Below are positions 1 through 13,678 of a DNA stretch of 13,678 nt, in pieces. The notes beneath the pieces are model-generated. The model made no database searches. It had not been told where the DNA came from and was given only the letters and a program-made list of their open reading frames with translations. The position numbers and the translations under genes are program-made. Position 1 is the first letter of the stretch. The number at the start of each line of letters is the position of its first letter. Source of the DNA: Pseudomonadales bacterium (GTDB lineage: Bacteria > Pseudomonadota > Gammaproteobacteria > Pseudomonadales > Porticoccaceae); the NCBI GenBank assembly GCA_020847115.1, contig JADLCO010000136.1:1-13678 (forward strand). The letters run 5' to 3'.

Positions 1-1
1 A

Positions 2-1322: not shown

Positions 1323-1346
1323 AGCAGACTTCGGCATGCATCCGGC

Positions 1347-1362
1347 GCGCCCGTGTGGGCGC
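1347..1362 (+). other. Perfect GC hairpin GCGCCC-GTGT-GGGCGC in the glbO / sagB-like spacer
   Basis: A 6-bp all-G:C stem with a 4-nt loop, read directly from the sequence, 25 nt after the glbO stop. No U-tract follows, so it is not a canonical intrinsic terminator. It could be a processing or stability element or a weak attenuator. Confidence 0.25.
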
Positions 1363-1449
1363 AAGCCGCAGCGTCGTACCACCGCTGCCGGGCGCCGGCG
1401 CTGGCCGATTACTGTCGCAGAGAGTTTGCGGCGATCGCGGATTTGCCGC

Positions 1450-3093
1450 ATGACTGCCATGAACGCCTACGCCACCGTACTCCGCTACCACGAGCGCACG
1501 GTGCACCGCTTCGCGGCTTACGCGCGCGGCCCGGAAACCCTGGACTGGGACGCGCAGCCGGCGCCGTTTCGCCGCTACGAGGGCGCCCCGGTGCAGGTGC
1601 TGCCGCTTTGCGCCGCGCGCTTCGAGGCGCCGTTTTCGCGCCTGCAACAACCGGTGCAGGGGCCGGCGGCTCAAGCCGGGCCAGACGCGCTCGGCGCGCT
1701 GCTGCAGCTTTCGTTCGCCATCTCGGCGTGGAAATCGAACGGCGTCGAGCGCTGGGCACTGCGCGCCAATCCCTCCAGCGGCAACCTGCATCCGACCGAG
1801 GTCTATGTGCTCGCCCACGGCATCGCAGGGCTCGCCGACGGCGTGCACCACTACCGCGCCGAGGACCACGCACTGGAACGCCGCGCCGTCTGGCCGCCGG
1901 GCGACGGGCCGCCGGGGCTGTATCTGGGTTTGAGTTCGGTGATCTGGCGCGAGGCCTGGAAGTACGGCGAGCGCGCGTTTCGCTACTGCCAGCTCGACGT
2001 CGGCCAAGCCGTGGCCTGCGTCGCCCATGCGGCCGCGCTGCTCGGCTGGCGGGTGGAAGAAGCTCGTTTGCCGCACGCGGCACTGGCGCGGCTGCTGGGG
2101 CTCGACCGCCACGGTGACTTCAGCGCCGGCCGGCGCGACGACGTCGAGCGCGAGGAGCCCGAGCTGCTGCTGGCGCTGCGCAGCGATCCCGCCGTTCCCG
2201 GTGACACCGGCGCGGCGCTGCCGGCACGCACCGAGGGCGCCAACTGGCACGGCCGCGCCAGCGCGATCGACCGCCACCCGATGTACCGCTGGCCGATCAT
2301 CGACGAGGTGGTCGCCGCGACGGCGCTTACGGACGCCGAGTCATCCGCCGTTGCCGTCGAGGCGGGTGAACTTGCGCGGCCGCCGTTCGAACCCGCCGGC
2401 GGCGAGCCCGGCGCGGTGGCGACCATTCTTGGCCGGCGCAGCGGCCAGCGCTACGACATCGATGGCCGTATGCCCGAGGCGACGTTTTTTCGCCTGCTCG
2501 GTGCGACGCTGGCCCGGCCCCAGCCGCCGTGGCAGACCTTGCCCGATGTGGCGCACGGCGCGCTGCTGCTGTTCGTGCACCGCGTGGACGGCCTGACGCC
2601 GGGTCTCTACCTGCTGCTGCGCGATGCCGCGAGCGCGGCCGCGCTGCCGGCACGGCTCAAGCCCGAATTCGCGGCCGCGCCGCGCGTCGCCGGTTTGGCG
2701 CACCTGGACCTGCGCTGCCTCGGCACAGTCGAGCCGGCCGCGCTGCGCCGGGTGGCGCGCAGCCTGTGCTGCCACCAGGACATCGCCGCGACCGCCTGTT
2801 TTTCGCTCGCCATGCTGGCACCGTTCGAGCCCGTGGTGCGGGCCGATCCTGCCCGCTACCGCGCGCTGCTGCGCGCGGCCGGCCTGGTCGGCCAGGTGCT
2901 GTACCTGGAGGCCGAGGCACTCGGCTACCGCGGCACTGGCATCGGCTGCTACTTCGACGACGAGGTACATGCGCTGCTGGGTCTCGAGGATCGGCAGTGG
3001 CAAGTCCTGTACGCCTTCGCCGTCGGCGTGCCGCTGCTCGACGCGCGGCTCGAAACCACCGCGCCCTACGTTGGGCGCGATCTCGCGGCGTGA
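1450..3093 (+). CDS. Tandem nitroreductase-fold protein, SagB/ThcOx-type dehydrogenase family (about 547 aa)
   Basis: The N-terminus YHERTVHRFAAYARGPETLDWDAQPAPFRRYEGAPVQVLP is the typical SagB-type opening (YHxxTKH...LDWxxQPxPFKxY). A second nitroreductase-like half follows (ILGRRSGQRYD...GLYLLL...GIGCYFDDEVHALLGL). The start could be ATG 1450 or 1459, and neither has a clear SD. The in-frame region upstream has poorer codon third-position GC. Confidence 0.8.
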   Translation: MTAMNAYATVLRYHERTVHRFAAYARGPETLDWDAQPAPFRRYEGAPVQVLPLCAARFEAPFSRLQQPVQGPAAQAGPDALGALLQLSFAISAWKSNGVERWALRANPSSGNLHPTEVYVLAHGIAGLADGVHHYRAEDHALERRAVWPPGDGPPGLYLGLSSVIWREAWKYGERAFRYCQLDVGQAVACVAHAAALLGWRVEEARLPHAALARLLGLDRHGDFSAGRRDDVEREEPELLLALRSDPAVPGDTGAALPARTEGANWHGRASAIDRHPMYRWPIIDEVVAATALTDAESSAVAVEAGELARPPFEPAGGEPGAVATILGRRSGQRYDIDGRMPEATFFRLLGATLARPQPPWQTLPDVAHGALLLFVHRVDGLTPGLYLLLRDAASAAALPARLKPEFAAAPRVAGLAHLDLRCLGTVEPAALRRVARSLCCHQDIAATACFSLAMLAPFEPVVRADPARYRALLRAAGLVGQVLYLEAEALGYRGTGIGCYFDDEVHALLGLEDRQWQVLYAFAVGVPLLDARLETTAPYVGRDLAA

Positions 3094-3104
3094 AGGAGCC
3101 GACC

Positions 3105-3482
3105 ATGCCCGAAGGCACCTTCCGCTGTATTCCCGCCGCCGAGGCGCTCGCGTTCATGATCGCGGCCACCGGGCAGCAGCGCCCGTACCGCCTGTTCGAC
3201 ACGCGCGACGCCGGCAGCTACGCGCGCGGCCATCTGGCGCAGGCCGAGCCGCTCGCGGAGCGCGACCTCGGGCAGTGGATCGGCCGCCTGCCGCGTGCGC
3301 AGCCGCTCTTGATCTACTGCTACCACGGCCACGCCAGCCAGGTGTTCGCCAAGGCCTTCGCCGACTTCGGCTACACCGAGGTCTACAGCATCGACGGCGG
3401 CTTCCAGGCGCTGGCGCAGGCCGCGGACCAGGCCCGCGCGGCGCCGCCGGCCGGTGTCACCTGGTCTCCACCACAGCCATAA
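3105..3482 (+). CDS. Single-domain rhodanese (GlpE-like sulfurtransferase), 125 aa
   Basis: The active-site loop CYHGHAS resembles E. coli GlpE CYHGNSS, within a rhodanese fold context (LIYCYHGHASQVFAKAFADFGYTEVYSIDGGFQAL). An AAGGAG SD lies at 3093-3098. A rhodanese (rhdN) after nifQ is known in Azotobacter vinelandii. Confidence 0.85.
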   Translation: MPEGTFRCIPAAEALAFMIAATGQQRPYRLFDTRDAGSYARGHLAQAEPLAERDLGQWIGRLPRAQPLLIYCYHGHASQVFAKAFADFGYTEVYSIDGGFQALAQAADQARAAPPAGVTWSPPQP

Positions 3483-3500
3483 ACCCGAGGAGTCCCCGCC

Positions 3501-3734
3501 ATGGCCATGACCGCAGCGCAAATCGAAATCCTGCTCAAAAGCGCTTTTCCCGATGCAGTGATCGAACTCACGGACACCGCCGGTGACGGCGACCACTGGC
3601 GTGCGCGCATCGTGTCGGCGGCGTTTCGCGGCAAGACGCGCGTGCAACAGCACCAGCTGGTGTACGGCGCGATCGGCCCCGAGATGGGCGGCGCGCTGCA
3701 CGCGCTGGCGCTGCACACCGAAGTTCCCGCCTGA
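3501..3734 (+). CDS. BolA-family protein, 77 aa
   Basis: Size and sequence fit BolA/IbaG (LTDTAGDGDHWRARIVSAAFRGKTRVQQHQLVY...LHALALHT, with the conserved C-terminal His). A GAGGAG SD lies at 3487-3492. It sits immediately upstream of a CGFS glutaredoxin, the known BolA partner. Confidence 0.8.
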   Translation: MAMTAAQIEILLKSAFPDAVIELTDTAGDGDHWRARIVSAAFRGKTRVQQHQLVYGAIGPEMGGALHALALHTEVPA

Positions 3735-3761
3735 GCTCACGCCCACCAAGGAGAACCCGCC

Positions 3762-4097
3762 ATGACCACGTCCGCCCCCGGCCCGGTTGCCGAGCACATC
3801 GGCGAACTCCTCGCCACGCACGACATCCTGCTGTTCATGAAAGGCGTCCCGGCGGCGCCGCAGTGCGGCTTCTCGCAGGCCGTGGTGCAGGTCATGAGCC
3901 AGCTCGGCGTGCGCTACGCCGCCGTCAATGTGCTCGCCGACGACGCGATCCGCGAGGGCATCAAGGCGTACTCCAACTGGCCGACCATCCCGCAGCTCTA
4001 TATCAAGGGCGAGTTCATCGGCGGCTGCGACATCGTGCGCGAGCTGTTCGCAAGCGGCGAGCTCCGGCAGCTGCTTGCGCAGAAAGGACTCGGCTGA
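3762..4097 (+). CDS. grxD: Monothiol glutaredoxin, Grx4/Grx5 (CGFS) family, 111 aa
   Basis: CGFS active site. WPTIPQLYIKGEFIGGCDIV is the canonical monothiol Grx motif. An AAGGAG SD lies at 3748-3753. Confidence 0.92.
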   Translation: MTTSAPGPVAEHIGELLATHDILLFMKGVPAAPQCGFSQAVVQVMSQLGVRYAAVNVLADDAIREGIKAYSNWPTIPQLYIKGEFIGGCDIVRELFASGELRQLLAQKGLG

Positions 4098-4134
4098 ACG
4101 CCGCGCGGACCTCTGGAACCACCGGATACCCAAC

Positions 4135-4473
4135 ATGAACTTCACCACCCTCTGCACCACCGACGCCGTGCGCGAAGGCGGCATGGGCCTGTTCCAGGTC
4201 GGCAAGAAAAGCGTGCTGCTGGTCTGGCCGGCCGGCGGCGAGCTCAAGGCCTACCGCGGCCGCTGCCCGCACGCCGACATGCCGCTCACCGAGGCCAGCT
4301 TCGATGGCCGGGCGGTGGTTTGTCCGCATCACCGCTGGGGCTTCGATGCCGGCAGCGGCAAGTGCGTGACACACCTGGTGCGCAATGCGCTGCACCCGTA
4401 TCCGCTGCGCATCGCGGGCGACGCGATCCAGGTCGACGTCGGCCCGGTGAAGCCGCCGCGCCCGCTGGCCTGA
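4135..4473 (+). CDS. Small Rieske [2Fe-2S] domain protein, 112 aa
   Basis: CPH-x16-CPHH (RGRCPHADMPLTEASFDGRAVVCPHHRWGFD) fits the Rieske C-x-H-x15-17-C-x-x-H motif. ATG 4135 lies within ORF 3928..4473. Confidence 0.85.
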   Translation: MNFTTLCTTDAVREGGMGLFQVGKKSVLLVWPAGGELKAYRGRCPHADMPLTEASFDGRAVVCPHHRWGFDAGSGKCVTHLVRNALHPYPLRIAGDAIQVDVGPVKPPRPLA

Positions 4474-4478
4474 CGCCG

Positions 4479-5322
4479 ATGGCGATGCCCGCCGATCTCG
4501 TCCAGACCGAGCCGGGGCTGGCGGTGCTGCGCATGGCGGCGCTGCTGGCCGAAGACGACGGCGCGCTCGACGAGGATCTGCTCGACGCCATGGCCGAGCA
4601 CACCGCGCGCGGTGCGCTGCACGCCACGCCGGCGGCGGCCATGTGGCCGGAATTGCGGCGGGGCCTCATGGCGCGCGCCGTCGCGCATGCTGGCGGCGCT
4701 GCGCCTGTCGGGCGCACTCGGCGCGGTGCTGCCGGAAGTCGCGGCGCTGTTCGGCGTGCCGCAGCTCGGCGCCGACCAGGCCGGCGTCGACATCGGCCTG
4801 CACACGCTGAACGCGCTGGCCGACGCCGCGCGCTGCGACGCGCCGCTCGAGGTGCGCTTTGCGCTCCTGGTGATGAACGTCGGCAAGTCCGACTCGCCGC
4901 CCGAGCACCTGCCGGTGCACTACCGCCACGTCGAGCGCGGCGGGCCGCGCATCGCGGCGATCTGCACGCGCCTCGGCGTGCCGGCAGCGTGTCGGGAGCT
5001 GGCGCTGCTCGCGCTCGGCGAATGCGAGCGCGTGCACCGCGTGTCCGAGGTCCGCGCGGGCCCGGTGGCGGCCATGCTCGAACGCCTGGGCGCCTTCGAT
5101 GCGCCAGAACGCTTCGCAGCCCTGATGCAGGTGTGCGCCTGCGACTACCGCGCCCACGGCGAGGGTTTCGGCCCGATCTATCCGAAGGCCGAGCTGCTGT
5201 ACACGGCGCTGCACGCCTGTCGGGGCGTGGCAGGCGACGCCGGTGATCTCGACGTGGCGCGCGCGCAGGCGATCGCCACGGCGTTTCGCTCGCAGCGCTG
5301 GTCGTCGGCCGGCCATGTCTGA
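4479..5322 (+). pseudogene. CCA-adding-enzyme (Cca) paralogue lacking the nucleotidyltransferase head, with a degenerate HD motif. The reading frame changes at the GCGCGCGC run 4671-4678
   Basis: In the frame of ATG 4479, EPGLAVLRMAALLA...HATPAAAMWPELRRGLMA is colinear with E. coli Cca DPLRVLRVARFAAR...[16 protein letters not shown]. In the frame of ORF 4612..5322, LPEVAALFGVPQ...VDIGLHTL...VRFALLVMNVGK...PPE...LGVP matches [12 protein letters not shown]...IDTGIHTL...VRFATLCHDLGK...PPE...LRVP. The codon third-position GC signal switches frame at about 4670-4680. If the break is genuine, the product would be either a truncated protein or one starting at ATG 4687. Confidence 0.6.
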
Positions 5323-5343
5323 CAGCGCGTCCGGACCCCGCCC

Positions 5344-5976
5344 ATGGCCATGAAGTTCTACATGACGCCCGGCTCCTGCTCGACCGGCATCCACATCCTG
5401 CTGGAAACGCTGGAGCTGCCGTTCGAGGCCTGGGTGCTCAACCTGCCGGCTGGCGATCACCTGAAGCCCGAGTACCTCGCCATCAACCCGCGCGGCACCA
5501 TCCCGACGCTGGTACCAGACGACGGCCCGGCGCTCACCGATTTCCGCTCGATCGCGCTGTGGCTCGCGGAGCGGTATCCGCGCGCCAGGCTGCTGCCGGA
5601 CGAACCGCCGCTTGCGGCGCGCGCGGTCGAGCTGCTCGACTTTGCACTGGGTCAGCTGCACGGCGAGGGCTTCACGCGCATCTTCACTGCCGAGCGCTAC
5701 CTTGCCGCGCCCGGTGCGCGGGCGCAGGACGACGTCGTGGCGCACGGCCGCGAGATCGTGGCGCAGGCGTTCGCGGCGCTCGAAAAACGCCTGCCGGCCG
5801 ACGGCTATGCGGTCGGCGAGCGCTTCACCGTCGCCGACGCCGCGCTGTTCTACAACGAGTTCTGGGCCGACAAGGTGGACATCCCGCTGCCGCCGCGCGT
5901 GGCGGCGCACTACCGGCGCCTGCGCGCGCTGCCGGTGGTGCGCCAGGTGCTCGCCGAGGAGGGGTATCGTTCGTGA
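5344..5976 (+). CDS. Glutathione S-transferase (beta-class-like), 210 aa
   Basis: An N-terminal thioredoxin-like GST domain with the SCS motif (TPGSCSTGIHILLE, compare E. coli Gst GACS) and INPRGTIPTL (compare the GST xNPxGxVP motif). The C-terminal helical domain contains FTVADAALF. Alternative start at ATG 5350. Confidence 0.85.
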   Translation: MAMKFYMTPGSCSTGIHILLETLELPFEAWVLNLPAGDHLKPEYLAINPRGTIPTLVPDDGPALTDFRSIALWLAERYPRARLLPDEPPLAARAVELLDFALGQLHGEGFTRIFTAERYLAAPGARAQDDVVAHGREIVAQAFAALEKRLPADGYAVGERFTVADAALFYNEFWADKVDIPLPPRVAAHYRRLRALPVVRQVLAEEGYRS

Positions 5977-6296
5977 CATCTCCGCTGGAGACCCTGTCGA
6001 TGTGCGACGAAGCCGGCGGGCGCGAACGCTATTTCCTCACCTATCGCGGCACCCGGCTGCCGCTGCAGTTGACGCAGGAGCTGCCCACCGGCGCGCTGCG
6101 TCATCGCAACACCTACATCCGGGCGCGCTACGATGGGCTGGACCGCCTGATCCGCTGCGAAAAACTGGTGTACGGGGAAGTCGAAATGATCCACGCCTAC
6201 GAGTACGATCCCGCCGGTCGGCTGTGCCGCGCCATCATCACGGTCGGCGACGAAGAACCACGGACGCTGTACCTCGACGCGGAGTCTCTCCCATGA
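5973..6296 (+). CDS. Hypothetical protein (about 98-107 aa) with a YD-repeat-like motif
   Basis: High third-position GC throughout. GTG 5973 overlaps the GST stop (GTGA); the alternative start is ATG 6000. The stop overlaps the apaG start (ATGA). It contains YEYDPAGRL, which resembles the YD/Rhs repeat core YxYDxxGRL. I do not recognise a family with confidence. Confidence 0.6.
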   Translation: MTSPLETLSMCDEAGGRERYFLTYRGTRLPLQLTQELPTGALRHRNTYIRARYDGLDRLIRCEKLVYGEVEMIHAYEYDPAGRLCRAIITVGDEEPRTLYLDAESLP

Positions 6297-6676
6297 ACGA
6301 TACCCTCACCCGTGACATCCGCGTGATTGCCGAGCCGCGCTTCCTGCCCGAGCAATCGGATCCGTCATCCAGCCGGTTCGTGTTTGCCTACCGGATCACC
6401 GTGCGCAACGAGGGCGCGGTCCCGGTGCGGCTGCTGTCGCGGCACTGGGTCATCACCAATGGCGAGGGCGCCGTGGAGGAAGTGCGCGGGCCGGGGGTGG
6501 TGGGTTGCCAGCCAAAGATCGAACCGGGAAGGGAGTTCCAGTACACGAGCGGCTGCCCACTCGACACGCCGATGGGCACCATGCACGGCAGTTTCCAGAT
6601 GGTGACCGCGGCCGGGGAGGCGTTCGATGCCCGCATCGCGCCGTTCCGGCTGGTGGTGCCGAACGTGCTGAATTGA
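6293..6676 (+). CDS. apaG: ApaG (DUF525) protein, 127 aa
   Basis: The typical ApaG sequence is present: FVFAYRITVRNEG...RHWVITNGEG..EEVRGPGVVGCQPKIEPGREFQYTSGCPL.TPMGTMHGSFQM. ATG 6293 lies inside ORF 5612..6676. Confidence 0.9.
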   Translation: MNDTLTRDIRVIAEPRFLPEQSDPSSSRFVFAYRITVRNEGAVPVRLLSRHWVITNGEGAVEEVRGPGVVGCQPKIEPGREFQYTSGCPLDTPMGTMHGSFQMVTAAGEAFDARIAPFRLVVPNVLN

Positions 6677-6742: not shown

Positions 6743-6982
6743 CTATAGCGGGATGCCGAAATAGTCCTCCTCCGTGCCACCCCAGATCTGATGCAACGCC
6801 AGGGCATCGCGCCATTTCGCGAGCTCTTCCGTCTCCGCCGGGCGGTGGGAAATGGCGCCGCCCGGATTTTTGCCCAGCAAAAACGCCTTGCCGTTGCGAA
6901 TGAAGCGGCCGAGCGCCTTGGCGTCGGTGGGTCGCACCACGCAGCGCGGTGCGCCGTCGACCAGGATGGTGGTTGGCAACAT
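6743..6982 (-). CDS. Hypothetical small protein, 79 aa (last gene of the minus-strand operon)
   Basis: An internal ATG (6982) of ORF 6743..7072 is preceded by GGGGAGA (SD-like). The sequence is MLPTTILVDGAPRCVVRPTD...WGGTEEDYFGIPL. By my hand count 15 of 80 codons end in A/T, clearly more than in neighbouring genes. No family recognised. Confidence 0.55.
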   Translation of the reverse strand: MLPTTILVDGAPRCVVRPTDAKALGRFIRNGKAFLLGKNPGGAISHRPAETEELAKWRDALALHQIWGGTEEDYFGIPL

Positions 6983-7003
6983 GGCCCGATCTCCCCGAGA
7001 GAG

Positions 7004-7028
7004 GCTGAATCTTCCCGTAGCCGAATCT
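7004..7028. repeat. Imperfect direct repeat GCTGAATCT / GCCGAATCT with 16-nt period in the 61-nt spacer
   Basis: Read directly: 7004-7012 gctgaatct and 7020-7028 gccgaatct (8/9 identical), flanked by gagaga...tctct. It lies in the spacer between the Cys-rich gene stop (7044) and the ATG at 6982. Confidence 0.3.
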
Positions 7029-7043
7029 CTGCGCGCTTCGCTT

Positions 7044-7256
7044 TCAGCCCGCCGCCCGCATGGCGTGGGCACCGCACTTGCGGCAGGTGTCGAGCACGTC
7101 GAAGGCCTGCTCGGTGCAAGTGCCCTGGTTCTGCTTGCAGCCGCGCGCGCCGCACTCGCCGCACCGGTACAGGGTGCCGTTGCATTGCTGGCCGGCCTTG
7201 CGCGTGCCGGCGCACAGGGGCTGGTCGGACTTGAGCTGGTCGTAGGCGAGTGCCAT
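7044..7256 (-). CDS. Small cysteine-rich protein, 70 aa, 8 Cys, zinc-ribbon/rubredoxin-like knuckles
   Basis: This is the last 70 codons of ORF 7044..8036, starting MALAYDQLKSDQPLC.... Cys lie at positions 15, 25, 32, 35, 40, 47, 58 and 61, with two CxxCG knuckles (YRCGECG, DTCRKCG). Only 4 of 71 codons end in A/T by hand count, so it is strongly coding. An ACGGAG SD lies inside the end of the upstream gene, with a 5-nt gap to the DUF364 stop. Confidence 0.75.
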   Translation of the reverse strand: MALAYDQLKSDQPLCAGTRKAGQQCNGTLYRCGECGARGCKQNQGTCTEQAFDVLDTCRKCGAHAMRAAG

Positions 7257-7261
7257 GGGGT

Positions 7262-8044
7262 CTACTCCGTGGTGGGGGATGAACGGCCGCCGAGCGGCGC
7301 CAGCGCATAGCCCGCGCCGCCCTCGAACAGCCGCGTGCCGCCGCCCTCGGCGACGGTGCGGCGCAGCTGTTCCGGATCGGTGACCTGCACGCCGGCGAGG
7401 TAATCGATGCCGAACTCGGCGAGCTCCGCCAGCCAGGGCGTGCCGGGGCCCATCAGCACCGTGGTGGCGTTGCGGGCGAGCTCCGCCAGCCGCGGAAAGG
7501 TCTTGTTGGCAAGGCTGCTTGCGGTCAGGAACACCCAGTCGGCTTCGGGCAGCAGGTACTCGCAGGCCGGGTCCGGCAGGTCGCCTGCTCCCGGCTGGCG
7601 CTCCAGTACCACCAGATCCGCGCCGGCGGCCAGTGTCTCGAGGCCCGGGTAGCGGCCGATCACCACCACCCGCCGGCCGCCGAGCAGCGGCAGGAAATGC
7701 GCGAACACGGCGAGGTTGCCGGGCCCCGCGCCGACCAGCGGCCGGGCACGGGCGAGCAGGGGGTTGTCCGGGGTGTTGATCACGGCGTTGACGGCAGCGA
7801 GGCCCAGGCTCGCCGCGTGTGGGTCCCAGTCGCGCAGCCGGGCGGCGAGGTCCGCTAGCGGCTGGCCCACCAGCGTGCCCGGCCAGGGCAGGGTGCGCGG
7901 CGCGGCGGCCGGGGTCATGGCGAGGCCCGTGCCCCGGGGGCTGCGGCACAGCGTCCACACCAGCCCCATCACCACCTCTTCGGCAGGGTCGTCCGCGCCG
8001 GCGACGCGGTCCAGCAGCAGGTCGTAGACGGACCACGGGTTCAT
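7262..8044 (-). CDS. DUF4213/DUF364 protein (Rossmann-like 'putative heavy-metal chelation' family), 260 aa
   Basis: The N-terminal VVMGLVWTLCRSPRGTGLAMT is DUF4213-like. The C-terminal RVVVIGRYPG...LVVLERQP..GDLPDPACEYLLPEADWVFLTASSLANKT...VLMGPGTPW...GIDYLAGVQVTDPE...AEGGGTRLF matches my recollection of the PF04016 pattern. Confidence 0.85.
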   Translation of the reverse strand: MNPWSVYDLLLDRVAGADDPAEEVVMGLVWTLCRSPRGTGLAMTPAAAPRTLPWPGTLVGQPLADLAARLRDWDPHAASLGLAAVNAVINTPDNPLLARARPLVGAGPGNLAVFAHFLPLLGGRRVVVIGRYPGLETLAAGADLVVLERQPGAGDLPDPACEYLLPEADWVFLTASSLANKTFPRLAELARNATTVLMGPGTPWLAELAEFGIDYLAGVQVTDPEQLRRTVAEGGGTRLFEGGAGYALAPLGGRSSPTTE

Positions 8045-8071
8045 CGCGGCAGCGCGGCGCGCGGGCGATGT

Positions 8072-8872
8072 TCAGGCCGCATCGATCGCGCCCCGGTGCA
8101 GTGCCCGGATCACCTCGGCGCCGACCTGGTCATCCGGATCGAGTTCGGCGAGCTTGTCGAGCAGCGTCCGGCTCTGCTCGGGGTCGCCGCGGCGCAGGCG
8201 GATGAAGGCCAGGGCCTTGAGACTGAACAGGTAGAAGCGCGCTGGGCCCGCGGCCGGCGACCAGGGTGCGGCGGCGCGCGACAGCGCCCGCCAGTCCGCC
8301 GCGAACCCGCCCTGAGCCGCGGCCGCCGCCAGACCGTCGCGGGTGGCGGCTTCGGCCTCGGCCAGTCGATTGCGATGGAACAGGAACTTGTAGCGGGCGA
8401 AGTGGACCGCCAAGGCGCCGGGATCGGCGCGCGCCGCCTGCTCCAGGCGGCGTTCGGTGGCTCCCGCGTCGGTGGCCAGGCTCGCGGCCGCCTCGGTCAG
8501 GGCGGCGTCGGTGGCGGCGCGCAGTGCCGCGCCATCTGCCGGGCGTTTGGCCACCGCCGGCAGCGGCGGATGTTCGGTGCCGGGTGATGTCGGGAGCGGG
8601 AAGTGGTTGGCGATGATCGCCGGCAGATCGGCGGGCGTCACGCCGTTGTAGAGCACGCCCTCGGGATAGAGCAGCAGCGCCGGTCCCTGATTGCAGGGGC
8701 TCGGGCAGCCCTTGAATTCCACCGCTACGCTGGGCCACAGCCGGCGCCGGTCGATCTCATCGACGACCGCCTGCAGCAGCGTCAGCGCTGCCGCGTCACC
8801 GCCACTGCCGTGCGCATGCCCCGGCGGGCACTGCTGGGTACACACCAGGATGCGCGACTGGGCGGTGGCCAT
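8072..8872 (-). CDS. Thioredoxin-like [2Fe-2S] ferredoxin domain fused to an Ala-rich helical (TPR-like) C-terminal domain, 266 aa
   Basis: The start ATG 8872 is 5 nt downstream of the fixX stop. The rest of ORF 8072..9199 overlaps fixX and is not coding. The N-terminus is RILVCTQQCPPGH...VEFKGCPSPCNQGPALLLYPEGVLYNGV, with Cys at 11, 15, 56 and 60 (C-x3-C-x40-C-x3-C). This echoes the Cys11/14/24/56/60 layout of the Clostridium pasteurianum thioredoxin-like 2Fe-2S ferredoxin. The C-terminal about 170 aa are helical repeat-like (FYLFSLKALAFIRLRRGDPEQSRTLLDKLAELDPDDQVG). Confidence 0.7.
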   Translation of the reverse strand: MATAQSRILVCTQQCPPGHAHGSGGDAAALTLLQAVVDEIDRRRLWPSVAVEFKGCPSPCNQGPALLLYPEGVLYNGVTPADLPAIIANHFPLPTSPGTEHPPLPAVAKRPADGAALRAATDAALTEAAASLATDAGATERRLEQAARADPGALAVHFARYKFLFHRNRLAEAEAATRDGLAAAAAQGGFAADWRALSRAAAPWSPAAGPARFYLFSLKALAFIRLRRGDPEQSRTLLDKLAELDPDDQVGAEVIRALHRGAIDAA

Positions 8873-8877
8873 GGTGG

Positions 8878-9171
8878 TCAGCCGAACTTGAACAGGATGC
8901 CGAAGCCGCCGCGGGGATATTCCCAGTCGACGTTGCGGAATTCGGTGCAGATCACCCGGCAGGTGCCGCATTCCAGGCAGCCGTCGGTGATCAGCGTCAC
9001 CGCGCCGTTGCCCTCGGCGGTATAGCAGCCGGCGGGGCAACAAGTGGTGCATTGCTGCGCCTGGCATTGGCTGCGGCACACGTCCGGATCCCGGATCTGG
9101 ATGTGCGGCCGGCCGGCATCCACCTTGTAGCGGTTCTGAAACAGTTTTTCTTCGACATTCACGCGCATCAT
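8878..9171 (-). CDS. fixX: FixX ferredoxin-like protein, 97 aa
   Basis: MMRVNVEEKLFQNRYKVDAGRPHI...CPAGCY...GCLECGTCRVIC...WEYPRGGFGILFKFG is the typical FixX sequence. Its start overlaps the fixC stop (ATGA). Confidence 0.93.
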   Translation of the reverse strand: MMRVNVEEKLFQNRYKVDAGRPHIQIRDPDVCRSQCQAQQCTTCCPAGCYTAEGNGAVTLITDGCLECGTCRVICTEFRNVDWEYPRGGFGILFKFG

Positions 9172-10466
9172 TCGAACGCCCTCCACAGGCGGAACGCATC
9201 GCCCATCATGCCCAGCCAGCCGCGCCGCCCGGCGAAGGCGCGGCGCACCTCGCGCTCCTTGCTCTTCTTGTCGACACCGTCGACCTTGACCCACTGGTGT
9301 GCGGCCAGGGTGATCAGCTCGGGATAGAGCGTGAAGAAGTGCGGACTGCGGTGCAGCGCCGCCGGCAGCCGGCGGTATTTCTTCAAATCCTTCATCACGA
9401 AACTGTCGTCCAGCCGCTGCTTGTAGCCGGCCAGGTTGGCGGCGCTGAACGGCTGGCCCGCCGCGTGCAGATCGATGGCGGTCTCGGCGGCCAGTCGGCC
9501 CGAGGTCATGGCCAGGTTGGAGCCCTCGCGGTGCACCGCGTTGACCAGCCCGGCGGAGTCGCCGGCGATCATCCAGCCGTTGCCGTAGAGCTTCGGAATG
9601 GCGTCGTAGCCGCCCTCGGGAATCAGGTGGGCGACGTACTCCTTGACCTCGGCGCCTTCCAGCAGCGGGCGGATCGCCGGGTGTGCCTTCATCTCCTCGA
9701 GCATCACATAGGGCGGGATCTTCTGTGCGGCGAAGTCCGACAGCATGCAGCCGACGCCGATGGTCAGGCTCTCCTTGTTGGTGTAGAGAAAGCCCGTTCC
9801 TATCATGCCCTTGGTGATCTTGCCCACCATCTCGATGGCGACGCCCTCGTCGCCCTTCACGTTGAAGCGCGGCTCGATGATCTCGGGGGCGAGGAACAGG
9901 GTTTCCTTGACCGCGAGCGCCACGTCCTTGGGCTTGAGCTCGGGGTGGAAGCCGGCCTTGCGCGCCAGCGTGGAATTGACGCCGTCGGCCAGGATCACCA
10001 GATCGGCGTAGATGGCGCCACCCTCGCGGTCGGTCAGCACGCCGGCCACGCGGTCGCCGTCGAAGATCAGCTCGCGCACCGTGGTCTCGCAGATCACCAG
10101 GCCGCCGGCGTCCTGCACCTTCTTCGAGAACCACTTGTCGAACTGGGCGCGGACGATGGTGTAGCGGTTGTAGGGCGGGCGGTTGAAGGCTTCGGCGCGG
10201 TAGTTGCCGCCGACGTAGGCTTCGTCGTCGAGCAGCCAGCCGCGCTGTTCAATCAGGTAGCGCTCCAGCGGCGCGTCGTCGCGGAAGTCGGGAATGATGC
10301 GCTCCAGGGCGTCGGCGTAGAGGATCGCGCCCTGGACGTTCTTCGAACCCGGCGTTTCGCCGCGCTCGATCTGCAGCACCGACAGGCCGGCCTTGGCCAG
10401 GGTGTAGGCGGCGGCATTGCCGGCCGGTCCGGCGCCGACCACGATGGTGTCGAATTTCTCGTGCAT
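9168..10466 (-). CDS. fixC: FixC, ETF-quinone oxidoreductase-like flavoprotein, 432 aa
   Basis: An N-terminal FAD-binding motif (DTIVVGAGPAGNAAAYTLAKAGLSVLQIERG), the right length and its position between fixB and fixX. A GGGAGA SD lies upstream. Confidence 0.95.
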   Translation of the reverse strand: MHEKFDTIVVGAGPAGNAAAYTLAKAGLSVLQIERGETPGSKNVQGAILYADALERIIPDFRDDAPLERYLIEQRGWLLDDEAYVGGNYRAEAFNRPPYNRYTIVRAQFDKWFSKKVQDAGGLVICETTVRELIFDGDRVAGVLTDREGGAIYADLVILADGVNSTLARKAGFHPELKPKDVALAVKETLFLAPEIIEPRFNVKGDEGVAIEMVGKITKGMIGTGFLYTNKESLTIGVGCMLSDFAAQKIPPYVMLEEMKAHPAIRPLLEGAEVKEYVAHLIPEGGYDAIPKLYGNGWMIAGDSAGLVNAVHREGSNLAMTSGRLAAETAIDLHAAGQPFSAANLAGYKQRLDDSFVMKDLKKYRRLPAALHRSPHFFTLYPELITLAAHQWVKVDGVDKKSKEREVRRAFAGRRGWLGMMGDAFRLWRAFE

Positions 10467-10479
10467 GGCGTGTCTCCCG

Positions 10480-11568
10480 TCAACCGGCTTTGCGTGCCAC
10501 CGCCAGGTGTTGGCGGAAGGCTTCGGTCAAGGCCGGCAGAACCTGCAGGGCATTGCCCACGATGCCGTAGGTGGCGAAGTCGAAGATGGGCGCGTTGGGG
10601 TCGTTGTTGATGGCGATGATCACGTCGGCGCCCTCCATGCCCACCCGGTGCTGCACCGCGCCGGAGATGCCGGCGGCGATGTAGAGCTTGGGCCGCACCG
10701 TCTTGCCGGACTGGCCCACCTGGCGGTCGAGCTCCACCCAGCCGGCCTGCACCACCGGCCGCGAGGCGCCCACCTCGGCGCCGAGCACCCGCGCCAGATC
10801 CCAGACCAACTGGAAATTCTCGGGGCTTTTCAGGCCGCGGCCGCCGGAGACGATGATGTCGGCAAACGGCAGTTGCGGCCTGTCCTGGCGGTTGTCGGGG
10901 ATGTAGTCCAGCACCTTGGTGACGATGTCGGTTTCGATCAGGTGCAGGGGCTGCTCGATGATCGGCCCGCTGCGGCTCTCGTCGTAGCTGGCCATGGGCA
11001 TCACCCGCGGGCGCACCGTGGCCATCTGCGGCCGGTAGTTCAGGGTGAGGATGGTGCACAGCAGGCTGCCGCCGAAGGTGGGGCGGGAAGCCGCCAGACT
11101 GCGGTTCTCGGGGTCGATATTGAGCTCGGTGCAGTCGGCGGTGAGCCCGGTCTGCAGCGTGGTGGCCACCGAGCCCGCCAGGTCGCGGCCGAGCGTGGTC
11201 GCGCCGAGCAGCAGGATCTCCGGCTGATGGGCGTTGACCAGCTCGGTGAGGCCCTGGGTGAAGGGCTGGTTGCGGTAATCCGCGAGCACCGGGTCCTCCA
11301 TCAGGTAGCAGCGGTCAGCGCCGTAGCGGAAGGCCTCGTGACAGAAGCGCCGCGTGTCCTCGCCCGGCGCCCCCATCACCACCCCGGACAGGGGTACGCC
11401 GAGCTGGTCGGCGAGCTTGCGGCCCTCGCCCATCAGCTCCCAGGACACGCTGTGCGCCTGGCCGCGCTCGTGCTCCACGAACACCCACACGCCCTGATAG
11501 GCGGCGAGTCGCGGATCCAGCTCGACCTTGCGGCCGGCGCGCTTGGCGGGTGCTTTGGCTTCGGTCAT
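10480..11568 (-). CDS. fixB: FixB, electron-transfer flavoprotein alpha subunit, 362 aa
   Basis: The real start is ATG 11568 inside ORF 10480..12249 ([14 protein letters not shown]...), 2 nt after the fixA stop. An ETF-alpha C-terminal FAD domain is present (VSGGRGL...[11 protein letters not shown]...[25 protein letters not shown]). Confidence 0.95.
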
Positions 11569-11570
11569 GG

Positions 11571-12425
11571 TCAGATGCTCCCGGTGGTGCCCGCGGAGAT
11601 GGCGCTCTCCAGGGCGGGGTGTTGCGTGAAGAGTTTGGCGATGAGGGTGACGGCGAGATCCTTGGGCGCGTTGCTCTCGCACTTGATTTGCTCGGCCTTG
11701 CTCGCCTTCGGCTGGGGGGCAAACACCTTGCTGACCACGGTCGGCGAGCCCTTGAGGCCGATCTTGGCGACATCCTCGATGCCGGCCGCGGCCTTGTCCC
11801 ACACCCGCACCGGGTGGCGCGCGGCGCGGAACATGCCGGCCTGGCTCGCAAAGCGCATCTCGTTGGTGCCTTCGAGCATGGTGATCAGACAGGGCAGGCG
11901 CGTCTGCAGCACCTGCACGCCGCCTTCGGCGCGGCGCTGGACGACGATTTCGCGCCGCTCGGTATCGACGCGGTCGACCTGGCTGACGTAGGTGAGCAAC
12001 TGCAGGTCGAGGCGTTTGGCGATGCCGGGGCCGACCTGGGCGGTGTCGCCGTCGATGGTCTGCTTGCCGCAGAACACCAGGTCCACCGCCATGTTGCGGC
12101 CGATCTGGCCGATCGCGCTGGCCAGCGCAAAGCTGGTGGCCAGCGTGTCGGAACCGGCGAAGGCGCGATCGGTGACCAGGATGGCGTCGTCGGCGCCAAA
12201 CGAGATCGCCTTGCGCAGCGCGGCCTCGGCGGGCGGCGGCCCCATGCACAGCACGGTGACCTGGGCGCCGTAGGTGTCCTTGAGGCGCAGCGCTTCTTCC
12301 AGGGCGAACAGATCGTAGGGATTGACCACTGCCGGCACACCCTGGCGCATGATGGTGTTGGTCACCGGATGGACGCGGATCTGCGAACTGTCCGGGACCT
12401 GCTTGATGCAGACGACGATGTGCAT
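11571..12425 (-). CDS. fixA: FixA, electron-transfer flavoprotein beta subunit, 284 aa
   Basis: [50 protein letters not shown] is the classic ETF-beta/FixA N-terminus. A GGAG SD follows directly after the nifW stop. Confidence 0.95.
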
Positions 12426-12437
12426 GTAACTGACTCC

Positions 12438-12767
12438 TCAGTGCCGTTGTGAGGGAAGGCTGGCGCGCAGCCTGTCGAGGCTGACGCGCTGGCCATCGGC
12501 GTCCTGGAACACCTTGAACACCTTTTCCCGGGCCGCGGTGGAATGGACGAAATCCTCGTAGGCGCGGACCAGCAGCGCCTTGCAGGTCTGCCCTTGGTCC
12601 GGTTCATCCAGAGCCTCGAGCTCGGCGCGCGCCAGGTATTGGCTGAAGCGCTTGAGGATGTGCAGGCGGTGCACCTGCACCACCCCCGGCTCGTAGGGAA
12701 TCTGGAAAAACGCCAGGAATTCCTCGGCGGCGGAAAATTCCTGCAGGGTGCGCAGCAGCTCGGTCAT
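12438..12767 (-). CDS. nifW: NifW, nitrogenase-stabilising/protective protein, 109 aa
   Basis: [38 protein letters not shown] is the conserved NifW N-terminal block. The start overlaps the nifV stop (ATGA). Confidence 0.93.
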
Positions 12768-13678
12768 GGCCGTACCTCGGCAGTGCCGGGCGCGGCGGCG
12801 GTGTGGCGCAGTTCAGTGTGGTGCAGTTCGGCGTGGAAGCGGCGCAGCTCCTCGGCTTCCGGCGGACGCTTGGCGAGCTGGGCATGAGTGCGCACCCGCG
12901 CCAGCAGCCGCTCGGCCTGGACCCGGGTCAGGGTGATGCCCAGCTCGCGCTGATAGGCGGCGCGCACGGCGTGTGCGCCGGAGTGCTTGCCGAGCACCAG
13001 GCGATGGCCGCGGCCGACTTCGGCCGGATCGAAGCTCTGGTAGTTCGGCGCGTGCTTGAGCAGGCCGTCGACGTGGATGCCGGATTCGTGGGTGAACACG
13101 CCTTCGCCCACCACGCTCTTGTTGGCCGCCACCGGGCGCCCCGAAGCGGCGGCGACCAGGCGCGACAGGTCGGGCAAGCGGCGGGTATCGACGCCGGTGG
13201 CGATGCCGTGCAGGTGGCGCAGCGCCATCACCACCTCCTCGAGGGGCGCATTGCCGGCGCGCTCGCCCAAGCCGTTGACCGTGGTGTTGACATGGGTTGC
13301 GCCGGCCAGCACCGCCGCCAGTGTGTTCGCCGTGGCGAGGCCGAGATCGTCGTGGGCGTGCATCTCCAGTTCCAGATCGACATGCTGGCGCAGCCGGGCG
13401 ATGGCCGCGCGGGTGGCGAAGGGATCCAGCACCCCGAGCGTGTCGGCGTAGCGCAGGCGCCGCGCGCCGCTGGCCTGGGCCCGCTCGGCGAAGCGCAGCA
13501 GGAAATCGGCGTCGGCGCGCGAGGCATCCTCGGCGCCGACGCTCACCTCGCAGCCGCGGTCGCGCGCCGCGCGCACGTGGCGGTCGATGGCGGCGAGCAC
13601 GAAGGCGCGGTCGCGGCCCAGCTTGCGCGCGATCTGCAGGTCCGAGGCCGGGATCGCCAGGTGCACGCAGGTGGCGCC
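12764..13678 (-). CDS. nifV: NifV homocitrate synthase (N-terminus outside window)
   Basis: The frame remains open to the window edge ([13 protein letters not shown]...), so the GTG 'start' at 13666 in the ORF track is internal. [47 protein letters not shown] and [11 protein letters not shown] are homocitrate/isopropylmalate synthase family motifs. The nif context supports NifV. Confidence 0.92.

What the first reader, a model, noticed from the sequence alone, without database searches (positions are those of the whole stretch)
6743..8872. fixABCX is extended by four uncharacterised co-oriented genes: a candidate Fix/nif-associated metallo-redox module
Directly after fixX come four genes on the same strand with gaps of 5, 27, 5 and 61 nt. 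They are a thioredoxin-like [2Fe-2S] ferredoxin fusion, a DUF4213/DUF364 'heavy-metal chelation' protein, an 8-Cys 70-aa protein and a 79-aa hypothetical. None belongs to the canonical nifVW-fixABCX set as I know it from Azospirillum- or Azotobacter-type clusters. All but the last share the extreme codon third-position GC of the fix genes, so they look native and co-transcribed. An Fe-S carrier, a putative chelation enzyme and a Cys-rich metal-binding peptide sit downstream of the nitrogenase electron-bifurcating complex. This combination suggests an undescribed role in electron delivery or in metal (Mo/Fe) handling for nitrogenase. The functional link is inference only.
Basis: partly seen in the sequence, partly recalled or inferred. 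Interest (0 to 1): 0.75.

Follow-up and report, generated by a model that had tools for sequence, protein, structure and literature searches.

The report
Nitrogenase accessory genes appended to fixABCX
Four real, conserved genes follow fixX in a nitrogen-fixation operon of an Immundisolibacter-like bacterium; three of their protein parts belong to an accessory gene set that travels with nitrogenase genes in many bacteria and whose function is still unknown.

Summary
Four co-oriented genes lie at 8872-6743 on the minus strand, after fixX, with gaps of 5, 27, 5 and 61 nt. All four are conserved and under purifying selection. On a 99.97%-identical 35.6-kb contig they end a nifV-nifW-fixABCX operon that is preceded by a NifA-binding site and a sigma-54 promoter, inside a large nif cluster.

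Gene 1 is not outside the known nif repertoire. Its N-terminus is a Shethna-protein-I (FeSI)-type thioredoxin-like [2Fe-2S] ferredoxin, fused here to a 7-helix TPR domain. The two halves are separate adjacent genes in I. cernigliae, Macondimonas-like MAGs, Sideroxydans and Paraburkholderia. The fused forms have moved one cluster ligand (Cys24 to Cys15).

The set is not Fix-specific. Ferredoxin, TPR, a ~125-aa protein and DUF364 follow nifENX-DUF269-DUF683-fdxB in methanotrophs, Chromatiales and Zetaproteobacteria. The pair follows nifVW without fix in one methanotroph. DUF364 orthologues also sit inside or beside modABC.

The 8-Cys protein and the 79-aa protein are tiny families confined to Immundisolibacterales.

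My best reading is a nif accessory module serving metal or cofactor supply, probably molybdenum handling, rather than electron bifurcation. The function itself is inferred, not shown. I rate it a new variant of a known kind, of moderate interest.

The parts
8072..8872 (-). Gene 1, 266 aa: a fusion of an FeSI-type thioredoxin-like [2Fe-2S] ferredoxin and a TPR domain. It starts 5 nt after the fixX stop.
8588..8872 (-). Ferredoxin domain (aa 1-95). Cys11, Cys56 and Cys60 are canonical ligands. Canonical Cys24 is Gly, and a new Cys15 gives a CxxxC motif.
   Evidence: HMMER alignments to 1f37 and 5abr. The Foldseek top hit is A. vinelandii FeSI 5abr, E 1.8e-5. The ligand pattern is seen in 9 fused against 4 unfused homologues.
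8537..8587 (-). Pro/Ala-rich linker (aa 96-112), predicted disordered. Its length varies from 0 to about 60 aa among fused homologues.
   Evidence: pLDDT is below 50 at residues 97-107. Alignment.
8075..8536 (-). TPR-like domain (aa 113-266) of seven helices. It is homologous to stand-alone 155-175-aa proteins encoded next to the ferredoxin in other nif clusters.
   Evidence: pLDDT is 90-98. Foldseek gives TPR hits with TMt 0.72-0.78. About 80 stand-alone homologue clusters were found. hhalign to the Paraburkholderia neighbour gives 99.9% probability. Pfam TPR hits fall below threshold.
7262..8044 (-). Gene 2, 260 aa: a DUF4213/DUF364 protein with an enolase-N-like domain and a Rossmann-like domain. 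It belongs to a tight orthologue group (55% identity or more) found in proteobacteria whose loci carry nif genes and in cyanobacteria.
   Evidence: PDB 3l5o, E 1.7e-35.
7044..7256 (-). Gene 3, 70 aa: a protein with 8 invariant Cys (C15, C25, C32, C35, C40, C47, C58, C61; two CxxC pairs). It starts 5 nt after the DUF364 stop. It follows DUF364 in 13 of the 14 distinct Immundisolibacterales-type loci examined; in the fourteenth (L013) the contig ends about 60 nt after DUF364.
   Evidence: (only 7 clusters in 5.8 billion proteins).
6743..6982 (-). Gene 4, 79 aa: a small alpha/beta protein (strand-strand-helix-strand-helix-strand) with no family or structural match. It is the last gene of the operon.
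   Evidence: 27 representative clusters in 1.84 billion; pLDDT 92.6.
8878..9171 (-). fixX, 97 aa, immediately upstream of the block.
9168..12425 (-). fixC (9168-10466), fixB (10480-11568) and fixA (11571-12425).
12438..13678 (-). nifW (12438-12767) and nifV (12764 to the window end, cut). These are the first genes of the operon. The promoter lies outside the window.
   Evidence: The NifA UAS and the sigma-54 -24/-12 element are on the 99.97%-identical contig L092.
6677..6742 (.). A 66-nt spacer between the convergent orf79 and apaG genes. It contains no convincing intrinsic terminator.
   Evidence: fold z-score -0.61.

Best explanation
The four genes are the 3' extension of a NifA/sigma-54-type operon, nifV-nifW-fixABCX-FdTPR-DUF364-Cys8-orf79, in an Immundisolibacter-like gammaproteobacterium.

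They are a lineage-specific assembly of a widely distributed nif accessory set: an FeSI-type thioredoxin-like [2Fe-2S] ferredoxin, its TPR partner (fused here) and a nif-type DUF364 enzyme. To these are added two small proteins restricted to the order Immundisolibacterales.

The set is not tied to FixABCX. In other diazotrophs it sits behind the FeMo-cofactor assembly operon (nifENX-DUF269-DUF683-fdxB), behind nifVW alone, or next to or inside modABC.

Inferred mechanism: the module serves metal or cofactor supply for nitrogenase. DUF364 is an enzyme with a nucleotide/SAM-type Rossmann pocket. It would act on, or make a ligand for, molybdenum on its way from ModABC to FeMo-co assembly. The ferredoxin would supply or remove electrons and be held on its partner by the TPR domain. 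The invariant 8-Cys protein would be a metal-binding partner of DUF364.

Shown here: gene reality, operon layout, homologies, the fusion and the conserved linkages. Inferred only: co-transcription, cluster binding, and every step of the biochemical role.
For: Operon:
- Gaps between the ten genes range from a 4-nt overlap to 61 nt.
- There is no minus-strand terminator and no good internal sigma-54 site.
- A NifA UAS (TGTCGCAAAATCGACA) and a GG-N10-GC element lie upstream of nifV on the 99.97%-identical contig L092, divergent from nifA-nifB.

Conserved linkage:
- The whole block follows fixX in L006-L015, L089 and L091.
- Ferredoxin plus TPR follow fixX in Sideroxydans and in Paraburkholderia pBN1.
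- Ferredoxin-(TPR)-c2-DUF364 follows nifENX-DUF269-Rop-like-fdxB in about 10 loci of Methylococcales, Chromatiales and Zetaproteobacteria; a Beggiatoa locus (L020) has fdxB-c2-DUF364 without the ferredoxin or TPR.
- A. vinelandii FeSI occupies the same position after nifENX and a 4Fe-4S ferredoxin (PMC8561814; PMC4465626).
- The gene fusion is Rosetta-stone-type evidence that the ferredoxin and the TPR protein work together.

Molybdenum link:
- L075 has modA-DUF364-modB-modC. modABC is divergent from DUF364 in L081 and L060, and lies 1.7 kb downstream in L041.
- A DUF364 gene in the M. maripaludis modABC operon is cofit with nifH under N2 fixation (bioRxiv 10.1101/2024.03.05.583561).
- STRING links DUF364 to Mo/V/W transporters (PMC2954201).

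Enzyme character: the only characterised DUF364 enzyme binds a SAM derivative (PMC12930334). The window protein is 35% identical to Dhaf4260 over its whole length.
Against: - No expression, genetic or biochemical data exist for any of these four genes.
- The published M. maripaludis phenotype may be polar, and it concerns a distant DUF364.
- About 55 cyanobacterial DUF364 orthologues are not within 10 kb of nif genes and, apart from a few modA/modB hits such as L060, not near mod genes.
- The organism already has nifQ, the known Mo donor.
- FeSI has no demonstrated partner and did not cross-link to MoFe protein (PMC8561814).
- The ferredoxin domain lacks one canonical ligand, so cluster binding is not assured.
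- Block composition is fluid within the order: the ferredoxin is absent in L006, L012, L014 and L015, and TPR is absent in L013. The parts may therefore not form one obligate machine.
Confidence: 0.55

Rival explanations
1. Fix-specific electron carrier. The ferredoxin-TPR protein is the dedicated acceptor of the low-potential electrons leaving FixX. It passes them to nitrogenase reductase, and the downstream genes assist that path.
For: The gene starts 5 nt after fixX. The same fixX-to-ferredoxin adjacency, with gaps of 10 nt or less, occurs in Paraburkholderia, I. cernigliae and Macondimonas-like MAGs. FixABCX is known to need a ferredoxin or flavodoxin acceptor (established knowledge; Ledbetter 2017, as cited in PMC12811062).
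Against: The same ferredoxin-TPR pair follows fdxB in the nifENX operon of methanotrophs and others whose loci show no fix genes. It follows nifVW with no fixABCX in L065. L006, L012, L014 and L015 keep fixABCX but have no ferredoxin at this site. A. vinelandii FeSI lies in the nifENX region, not next to fix (PMC8561814). From memory, thioredoxin-like 2Fe ferredoxins have midpoint potentials near -300 mV, which is marginal for Fe-protein reduction.
Confidence: 0.2
2. Oxygen or redox-stress protection. The ferredoxin-TPR protein, together with the small Cys-rich protein, binds and shields nitrogenase or its assembly intermediates in an aerobe. This would be analogous in purpose to FeSII or NifW.
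For: The hosts are aerobes. The block follows nifW and lies opposite an operon encoding truncated globin, glutaredoxin, BolA, rhodanese and a nitroreductase-family protein. The C. pasteurianum homologue binds MoFe protein (PMC8561814). The Trx-fold plus TPR architecture recalls the chaperedoxin YbbN, a weak Foldseek hit.
Against: FeSI did not cross-link to MoFe protein (PMC8561814). The idea does not explain DUF364 or its mod linkage. The YbbN match is poor (TM about 0.2).
Confidence: 0.1
3. Small-molecule or peptide biosynthesis. DUF364 uses SAM to modify the adjacent 70-aa Cys-rich protein, or to make an azetidine/aminocarboxypropyl-type chelator. On this view, DUF364 and Cys8 form a mini biosynthetic pair that merely resides in the nif cluster.
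For: The only characterised DUF364 enzyme is a SAM cyclase in a natural-product cluster (PMC12930334). DUF364-Cys8 adjacency with a 5-nt gap is seen in every locus of the order in which the contig extends beyond DUF364.
Against: Cys8 is conserved over its whole length with no leader/core pattern. It is absent from all other lineages that carry the orthologous DUF364. No transporter or tailoring genes accompany the pair.
Confidence: 0.1
4. Passenger genes. The four genes are unrelated hitch-hikers read through from the fix operon, with no role in nitrogen fixation.
For: No functional data exist. Cys8 and orf79 are narrowly distributed. Cyanobacterial DUF364 orthologues are not nif-linked.
Against: Linkage of the ferredoxin, TPR and DUF364 genes to nif genes recurs in at least three different arrangements across Beta-, Gamma- and Zetaproteobacteria. 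Selection is strongly purifying.
Confidence: 0.05

Closest known systems
Azotobacter vinelandii FeSI / Shethna protein I (Avin_01520; PDB 5abr) and the Clostridium pasteurianum [2Fe-2S] ferredoxin
   Same: Same thioredoxin-like ferredoxin fold and family: sequence E 6e-12, and top Foldseek hit with 34% identity. Both are encoded inside a nif cluster. Function is unknown in both cases.
   Different: Here the ferredoxin is fused to a C-terminal TPR domain. It scores far below the NCBIfam equivalog cut-off (57 against 195 bits). The canonical ligand Cys24 is replaced by Gly, with a new Cys15. It lies after fixX instead of after nifENX-fdxB.
Stand-alone nif-cluster TPR-like protein (unnamed; e.g. 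WP_095422929 of Paraburkholderia aromaticivorans pBN1, or the 162-aa gene of I. cernigliae)
   Same: Homologous to residues 113-266 of gene 1. It is always encoded directly after, or near, the FeSI-type ferredoxin gene.
   Different: It is a separate polypeptide elsewhere. The fusion is seen in only about 9 protein clusters.
DUF364 family: Dhaf4260 (PDB 3l5o), Streptomyces Orf5 methyl-azetidinecarboxylate synthase, and M. maripaludis MMP_RS02675
   Same: Same two-domain architecture. Identity to Dhaf4260 is 35% over the full length. Linkage to Mo transport and nitrogen fixation parallels the methanogen gene (bioRxiv 10.1101/2024.03.05.583561).
   Different: It belongs to a distinct, highly conserved orthologue group (55% identity or more from Gammaproteobacteria to Cyanobacteria). 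There is no radical-SAM methylase partner as in the Orf5 cluster. Its substrate is unknown.
E. coli YbbN/CnoX (thioredoxin fold + TPR chaperedoxin)
   Same: Same order of domains: an N-terminal Trx fold followed by C-terminal TPR.
   Different: There is only a weak structural match (TM about 0.2), no sequence homology and no Fe-S cluster in YbbN. This is an analogy of architecture only.

Membership tests
Thioredoxin-like [2Fe-2S] ferredoxin (FeSI / CpFd / Aquifex Fd4 type) | Thioredoxin-like beta-alpha-beta...beta-beta-alpha fold of about 100 residues | tested here: met
   The AF2 model has strands at 6-11, 49-54, 65-69 and 73-75, and helices at 26-42 and 80-90. The Foldseek top hits are 5abr, 1f37 and 1m2a, with probability 1.00.
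Thioredoxin-like [2Fe-2S] ferredoxin (FeSI / CpFd / Aquifex Fd4 type) | Four Cys ligands at the positions of FeSI Cys11, Cys24, Cys56 and Cys60 | tested here: not met
   Cys11, Cys56 and Cys60 are present. Position 24 is Gly. Cys15 is new and is present in all 9 fused homologues, while the 4 unfused ones keep Cys24. Ligand swapping between loop cysteines is documented for the C. pasteurianum protein (Golinelli 1996, title cited in PMC11138216; details from memory). Cluster binding therefore remains plausible but untested.
Thioredoxin-like [2Fe-2S] ferredoxin (FeSI / CpFd / Aquifex Fd4 type) | Score above the NCBIfam equivalog cut-off (NF041613, 195 bits) | tested here: not met
   The score is 57.4 bits. 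The protein is a family relative, not an equivalog.
Thioredoxin-like [2Fe-2S] ferredoxin (FeSI / CpFd / Aquifex Fd4 type) | Binds a [2Fe-2S] cluster | not testable with these tools
   This needs UV-vis/EPR of the purified protein and a C15S variant.
TPR repeat domain | Sequence match to Pfam TPR models above the gathering score | tested here: not met
   TPR_19 scores 20.6 bits against a cut-off of 25, and TPR_2 scores 18.4 against 27.
TPR repeat domain | Stacked helix-turn-helix pairs forming a right-handed solenoid | tested here: met
   There are seven helices between residues 113 and 265 with pLDDT 90-98. Foldseek matches STI-1, Sgt2 and designed CTPR proteins with TMt 0.72-0.78.
DUF4213/DUF364 (PF13938 + PF04016) | Both Pfam domains above the gathering score, in N-to-C order | tested here: met
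   DUF4213 scores 68.7 bits at residues 7-89, and DUF364 scores 137.6 bits at residues 114-247. PDB 3l5o matches with E 1.7e-35 over residues 3-244.
DUF4213/DUF364 (PF13938 + PF04016) | SAM-derived substrate binding and catalytic Tyr61/Glu204, as in Orf5 | not tested
The residues are known only from PMC12930334.
nifVW-fixABCX operon (as an added member) | Same strand, short gaps, no internal terminator or promoter | tested here: met
nifVW-fixABCX operon (as an added member) | NifA/sigma-54 control region upstream of the first gene | tested here: met
   A TGT-N10-ACA site lies at L092 3136-3151, and a GG-N10-GC element lies about 35 nt before the nifV ATG. L092 is 99.97% identical to the window. 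This is a sequence match only.
nifVW-fixABCX operon (as an added member) | Co-transcription under N2-fixing conditions | not testable with these tools
   This needs RNA-seq or RT-PCR.
Zinc-ribbon / rubredoxin-like small metalloprotein (for the 70-aa protein) | Two CxxC knuckles and a significant match to a known zinc-ribbon family | tested here: inconclusive
   CxxC pairs lie at 32-35 and 58-61, and four further Cys are invariant. There is no Pfam or NCBIfam hit. The best PDB profile hits are Rpb12 and L33, with E 0.055-0.11.

The most novel reading that the evidence does not exclude
The nif-type DUF364 protein is a SAM- or nucleotide-dependent enzyme that performs a so-far missing step in molybdenum trafficking to FeMo-cofactor. 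For example, it might make a small Mo-binding ligand or activate molybdate. The FeSI-type ferredoxin, an orphan since the 1960s, would be its dedicated redox partner, docked through the TPR domain. The invariant 8-Cys protein would be the metal carrier.
Probability: 0.15. Interest if true: 0.8.

Novelty: new variant of a known kind. Interest (0 to 1): 0.5.

Why it matters
Shethna protein I has had no assigned function since its purification in the 1960s, and DUF364 has only one characterised member, reported in 2026. This window and its relatives show three things.

- The FeSI-type ferredoxin has a constant TPR partner. The two are fused in this lineage, which points to a direct physical and functional pairing.
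- A tightly conserved DUF364 orthologue travels with the pair and with molybdate transporters.
- A cultured, sequenced host, Immundisolibacter cernigliae, carries the whole block.

Together these turn a vague 'nif-associated hypothetical' into a defined set of candidates for genetics and biochemistry on metal supply to nitrogenase. The result also corrects the view that the genes extend the Fix bifurcation system as such.

Tried and rejected
- Pfam and NCBIfam gave nothing for the 70-aa and 79-aa proteins.
- PDB profile searches gave only noise: MHC chains for orf79, and weak zinc-ribbon hits for Cys8.
- A 1183-aa hit to orf79 (P0236) is a TPR/CHAT repeat protein and was dismissed as a low-complexity match.
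- The search for an internal sigma-54 promoter gave no more hits than chance. Sigma-70 and terminator scans found nothing on the gene strand. The orf79/apaG spacer folds no better than shuffles.
- A megablast of the region against plasmids found only fixABC homology.
- I tested whether cyanobacterial DUF364 orthologues are nif-linked. They are not within 10 kb.
- The Azospirillum hits are a different DUF2478-DUF364 fusion next to tusA and were set aside.


Full report
**1. What is in the window**

The window is about 70% G+C. On the minus strand it carries a tightly packed gene row:
- nifV (12764 to the window end, cut)
- nifW (12438-12767)
- fixA (11571-12425)
- fixB (10480-11568)
- fixC (9168-10466)
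- fixX (8878-9171)
- four further genes at 8872-8072 (266 aa), 8044-7262 (260 aa), 7256-7044 (70 aa) and 6982-6743 (79 aa)

Independent gene calls on five near-identical (99.6-99.8% DNA identity) metagenome contigs give the same products. The row ends convergently with apaG (6293-6676, plus strand).

GC3 is 0.86, 0.92, 0.93 and 0.81 for the four genes. fixX has 0.83 and nifW 0.84. The last gene is therefore not compositionally foreign.

**2. Wider context and regulation**

A 35.6-kb JGI contig (L092) is 99.97% identical to the whole window. It shows the following layout:
- nifB and nifA, divergent from the operon
- nifV-nifW-fixABCX plus the four genes
- a convergent operon: nifE-nifN-nifX-DUF269-Rop-like-fdxB-nifQ-globin-nitroreductase-like-rhodanese-BolA-Grx-Rieske-211aa-GST-DUF6156-apaG

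Its nifA-nifV spacer contains a NifA-type TGT-N10-ACA site and a GG-N10-GC sigma-54 element about 35 nt before nifV.

Inside the window there is no better-than-chance sigma-54 site, no sigma-70-like site and no terminator on the gene strand. The spacer after orf79 folds no better than shuffles.

The simplest reading is one ten-gene NifA-dependent operon. Co-transcription is inferred, not shown.

**3. Gene 1 is an FeSI-type ferredoxin fused to a TPR domain**

Residues 1-91 match thioredoxin-like [2Fe-2S] ferredoxins:
- NCBIfam fdxn_Azotob, 1.4e-15
- Aquifex Fd4 1f37, 2.5e-12
- A. vinelandii FeSI 5abr, 6.3e-12

The AF2 model has mean pLDDT 85. Its best structural match is FeSI. Residues 113-265 form seven helices with pLDDT 90-98 and match TPR domains with TMt 0.72-0.78. 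The Pfam TPR scores stay below threshold.

FeSI (Shethna protein I) lies in the A. vinelandii major nif cluster after nifENX and a 4Fe-4S ferredoxin. It is induced 2.3-fold under N2 fixation and has no known function (PMC8561814; PMC4465626). So this gene is not outside the known nif repertoire.

A database search found only about 9 fused clusters but about 80 stand-alone TPR-like proteins of 150-175 aa. The two halves are separate, adjacent genes in:
- I. cernigliae, 107 aa plus 162 aa with overlapping reading frames
- Macondimonas-like MAGs
- Sideroxydans
- contig L090
- Paraburkholderia aromaticivorans pBN1, where hhalign gives 99.9% for the TPR part

The fusion is therefore recent and argues that the two proteins act together.

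All nine fused forms carry a new Cys15. Eight of the nine have lost the canonical ligand Cys24. All unfused forms keep Cys24 and lack Cys15. Loop-cysteine ligand swapping is known for the clostridial homologue (Golinelli 1996, cited in PMC11138216; details from memory).

**4. Gene 2 is a nif-type DUF364 protein**

Both Pfam domains are clear. Dhaf4260 (PDB 3l5o) aligns over the full length with E 1.7e-35. The closest relatives form a very tight group, at 55% identity or more.

A scan of one genome per species returned 388 relatives, and I examined the best 80.
- The nearest are Immundisolibacter, Macondimonas and related gammaproteobacterial MAGs (71-83% identity).
- Next come Methylococcales, Chromatiales, Beggiatoa, Zetaproteobacteria and Ectothiorhodospira.
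- About 55 are cyanobacteria. By their names, many come from genera known to fix nitrogen, including the spheroid-body endosymbionts of Rhopalodia and Epithemia. That last point rests on my own knowledge and was not tested.

**5. Neighbourhood survey**

I used tblastn with the window proteins and all-against-all clustering of ORFs in the 80 loci. Pfam labels were added and nif/mod queries. Five patterns emerged.

(a) All ten Immundisolibacterales-type loci, plus L089 and I. cernigliae, have nifV-nifW-fixABCX followed by the block.
- Composition varies. Macondimonas-like genomes have ferredoxin, TPR, a ~125-aa protein (c2), DUF364, Cys8, a 94-aa protein, a Rieske protein, an 81-aa protein and orf79.
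- L006, L012, L014 and L015 lack the ferredoxin. L013 lacks TPR.
- The window lineage lacks c2 and the Rieske segment.
- DUF364 followed by Cys8 is seen in every locus where the contig extends beyond DUF364; in L013 the contig ends about 60 nt after it.

(b) About ten loci of Methylococcales, Chromatiales and Zetaproteobacteria have nifE-nifN-nifX-DUF269-Rop-like-fdxB-ferredoxin-(TPR)-c2-DUF364. A Beggiatoa locus (L020) has the same row through fdxB, then c2-DUF364, with no ferredoxin or TPR hit.

(c) L065 has nifV-nifW-ferredoxin-TPR with no fix genes anywhere in the 20-kb locus.

(d) DUF364 is embedded as modA-DUF364-modB-modC in L075. It is divergent from modABC in Ectothiorhodospira (L081) and Scytonema (L060), and modABC lies 1.7 kb downstream in L041. 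In Methylococcus sp. EFPC2 it follows rnfE-rnfH-bfr-c2, 8 kb from nifH.

(e) Cyanobacterial orthologues have no nifB, nifE, nifN or nifX genes within 10 kb and, apart from a few modA/modB hits such as L060 (pattern d), no clear mod genes; weak ~30% modC hits look like generic ABC ATPases. In a spheroid-body genome the gene is flanked by secDF, pdhB and hisG.

Linkage to nif is therefore strong and recurs in several independent arrangements within Proteobacteria. It is not linkage to fix as such.

**6. Genes 3 and 4**

The 70-aa protein has only seven relatives among 5.8 billion clustered proteins, all from this order and including I. cernigliae. All eight Cys are invariant.

The 79-aa protein has 27 representative clusters among 1.84 billion, about five of them full-length. 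Its AF2 model is confident (pLDDT 92.6, strand-strand-helix-strand-helix-strand) but matches nothing in the PDB.

Substitution patterns show purifying selection on both. Neither has a family or a solved homologue.

**7. How it most likely works**

Shown:
- real genes and an operon-like layout
- a NifA/sigma-54-type control region
- the homologies
- the ferredoxin-TPR fusion
- conserved linkage to nifENX, nifVW, fixABCX and modABC

Inferred: the set is a nif accessory module for metal or cofactor supply. The arguments are as follows.
- Its alternative homes are the FeMo-co assembly operon and molybdate transport genes.
- A distant DUF364 in the M. maripaludis modABC operon is cofit with nifH under N2 fixation. 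The authors caution that polarity is possible (bioRxiv 10.1101/2024.03.05.583561).
- STRING links DUF364 to Mo, V and W transporters (PMC2954201).
- The only characterised DUF364 enzyme acts on a SAM derivative (PMC12930334).

On this reading, DUF364 would act on Mo or make a ligand for it. The ferredoxin would provide redox chemistry while held on its partner by the TPR domain. Cys8 would bind metal.

The main rival is a dedicated FixABCX electron acceptor. It fits the 5-nt junction and the Paraburkholderia, Sideroxydans and Immundisolibacter arrangement. It does not explain patterns (b) to (d), nor the relatives that keep fix but lack the ferredoxin.

Oxygen protection, a DUF364-Cys8 biosynthetic pair and pure passengers are less likely. 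The evidence for and against each is in the rival section.

**8. Comparison with what is known, and novelty**

The ferredoxin half is a divergent member of the FeSI family. One defining ligand position is not met, and the score is below the equivalog cut-off. The TPR partner, c2, Cys8 and orf79 have no names or literature that I could find.

DUF364 in nif or mod contexts has been noted only in passing (PMC2954201; bioRxiv 10.1101/2024.03.05.583561; bioRxiv 10.64898/2026.04.18.719408).

I class the finding as a new variant of a known kind: a nif-cluster accessory set built around an FeSI-type ferredoxin. The new elements are the fusion with a ligand shift, the constant TPR partner, the travelling DUF364 orthologue and two order-specific small proteins.

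Interest is moderate. No mechanism is demonstrated. However, the finding gives the orphan FeSI a testable partner and gives DUF364 a testable nitrogenase-related role, in a cultured host.

Noticed in passing
window 1-6676 (+ strand): The other half of the window is the tail of the convergent nifENX operon: fdxB (cut), nifQ (271-891), truncated globin (888-1322), a 547-aa nitroreductase-family protein (1450-3093), rhodanese (3090-3482), BolA (3501-3734), glutaredoxin (3762-4097), Rieske (4135-4473), a 211-aa protein (4687-5322), GST (5344-5976), DUF6156 (6000-6296) and apaG (6293-6676). Globin, the nitroreductase-like protein, rhodanese and Rieske also lie beside nifH in Methylococcus sp. EFPC2 (L095). 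This looks like a second conserved accessory set of unknown role.
   Followed up: partly
window 8828-8842 (codons 11-15 of gene 1); alignment A2: All nine fused ferredoxin-TPR proteins have a CxxxC motif (Cys11, Cys15), and eight of the nine lack the canonical ligand Cys24. All unfused homologues show the opposite pattern. This is a natural counterpart of the engineered ligand swap in the clostridial ferredoxin.
   Followed up: partly
L075 5456-8984: A MAG labelled Prochloron has modA-DUF364-modB-modC on one strand, with nifN-like, nifV-like and thioredoxin-like-ferredoxin-like genes upstream. The DUF364 is 54% identical to the window protein.
   Followed up: partly
L065 17265-19383: A Methylococcaceae genome has nifV-nifW followed directly by ferredoxin and TPR, with no fixABCX in the 20-kb locus. 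Its DUF364 lies 7 kb upstream.
   Followed up: no
L079 9613-10002; L095 1784-2143; L088 8483-8854: An unnamed protein of about 120-130 aa (c2, no Pfam match) is the commonest upstream neighbour of nif-type DUF364 (20 loci). It follows the TPR-like gene in Sideroxydans. It is absent from the window lineage.
   Followed up: partly
L053/L087 2466-5243; window 5344-6296: GST and DUF6156 genes lie next to c2-DUF364 in Methylocaldum. The same pair lies just beyond the block in the window. This recurring neighbourhood is unexplained.
   Followed up: no
L096 5485-6711 (Azospirillum lipoferum 4B plasmid AZO_p4): Azospirillum species carry a DUF2478-DUF364 fusion (33-37% identity to the window protein) next to a tusA-family gene. 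It is not nif-linked and appears to be a different branch of the family.
   Followed up: no
L049 9977-10750; L072: The reduced genomes of the N2-fixing spheroid-body endosymbionts of Rhopalodia and Epithemia retain the DUF364 orthologue among housekeeping genes (secDF, pdhB, hisG).
   Followed up: partly
L088 6534-6989: In Sideroxydans, a ferritin/rubrerythrin-like 151-aa gene sits between fixX and the ferredoxin, and a 189-aa unknown gene sits between the ferredoxin and TPR genes. modE-modABC follows about 1.4 kb downstream, after a porin gene.
   Followed up: no
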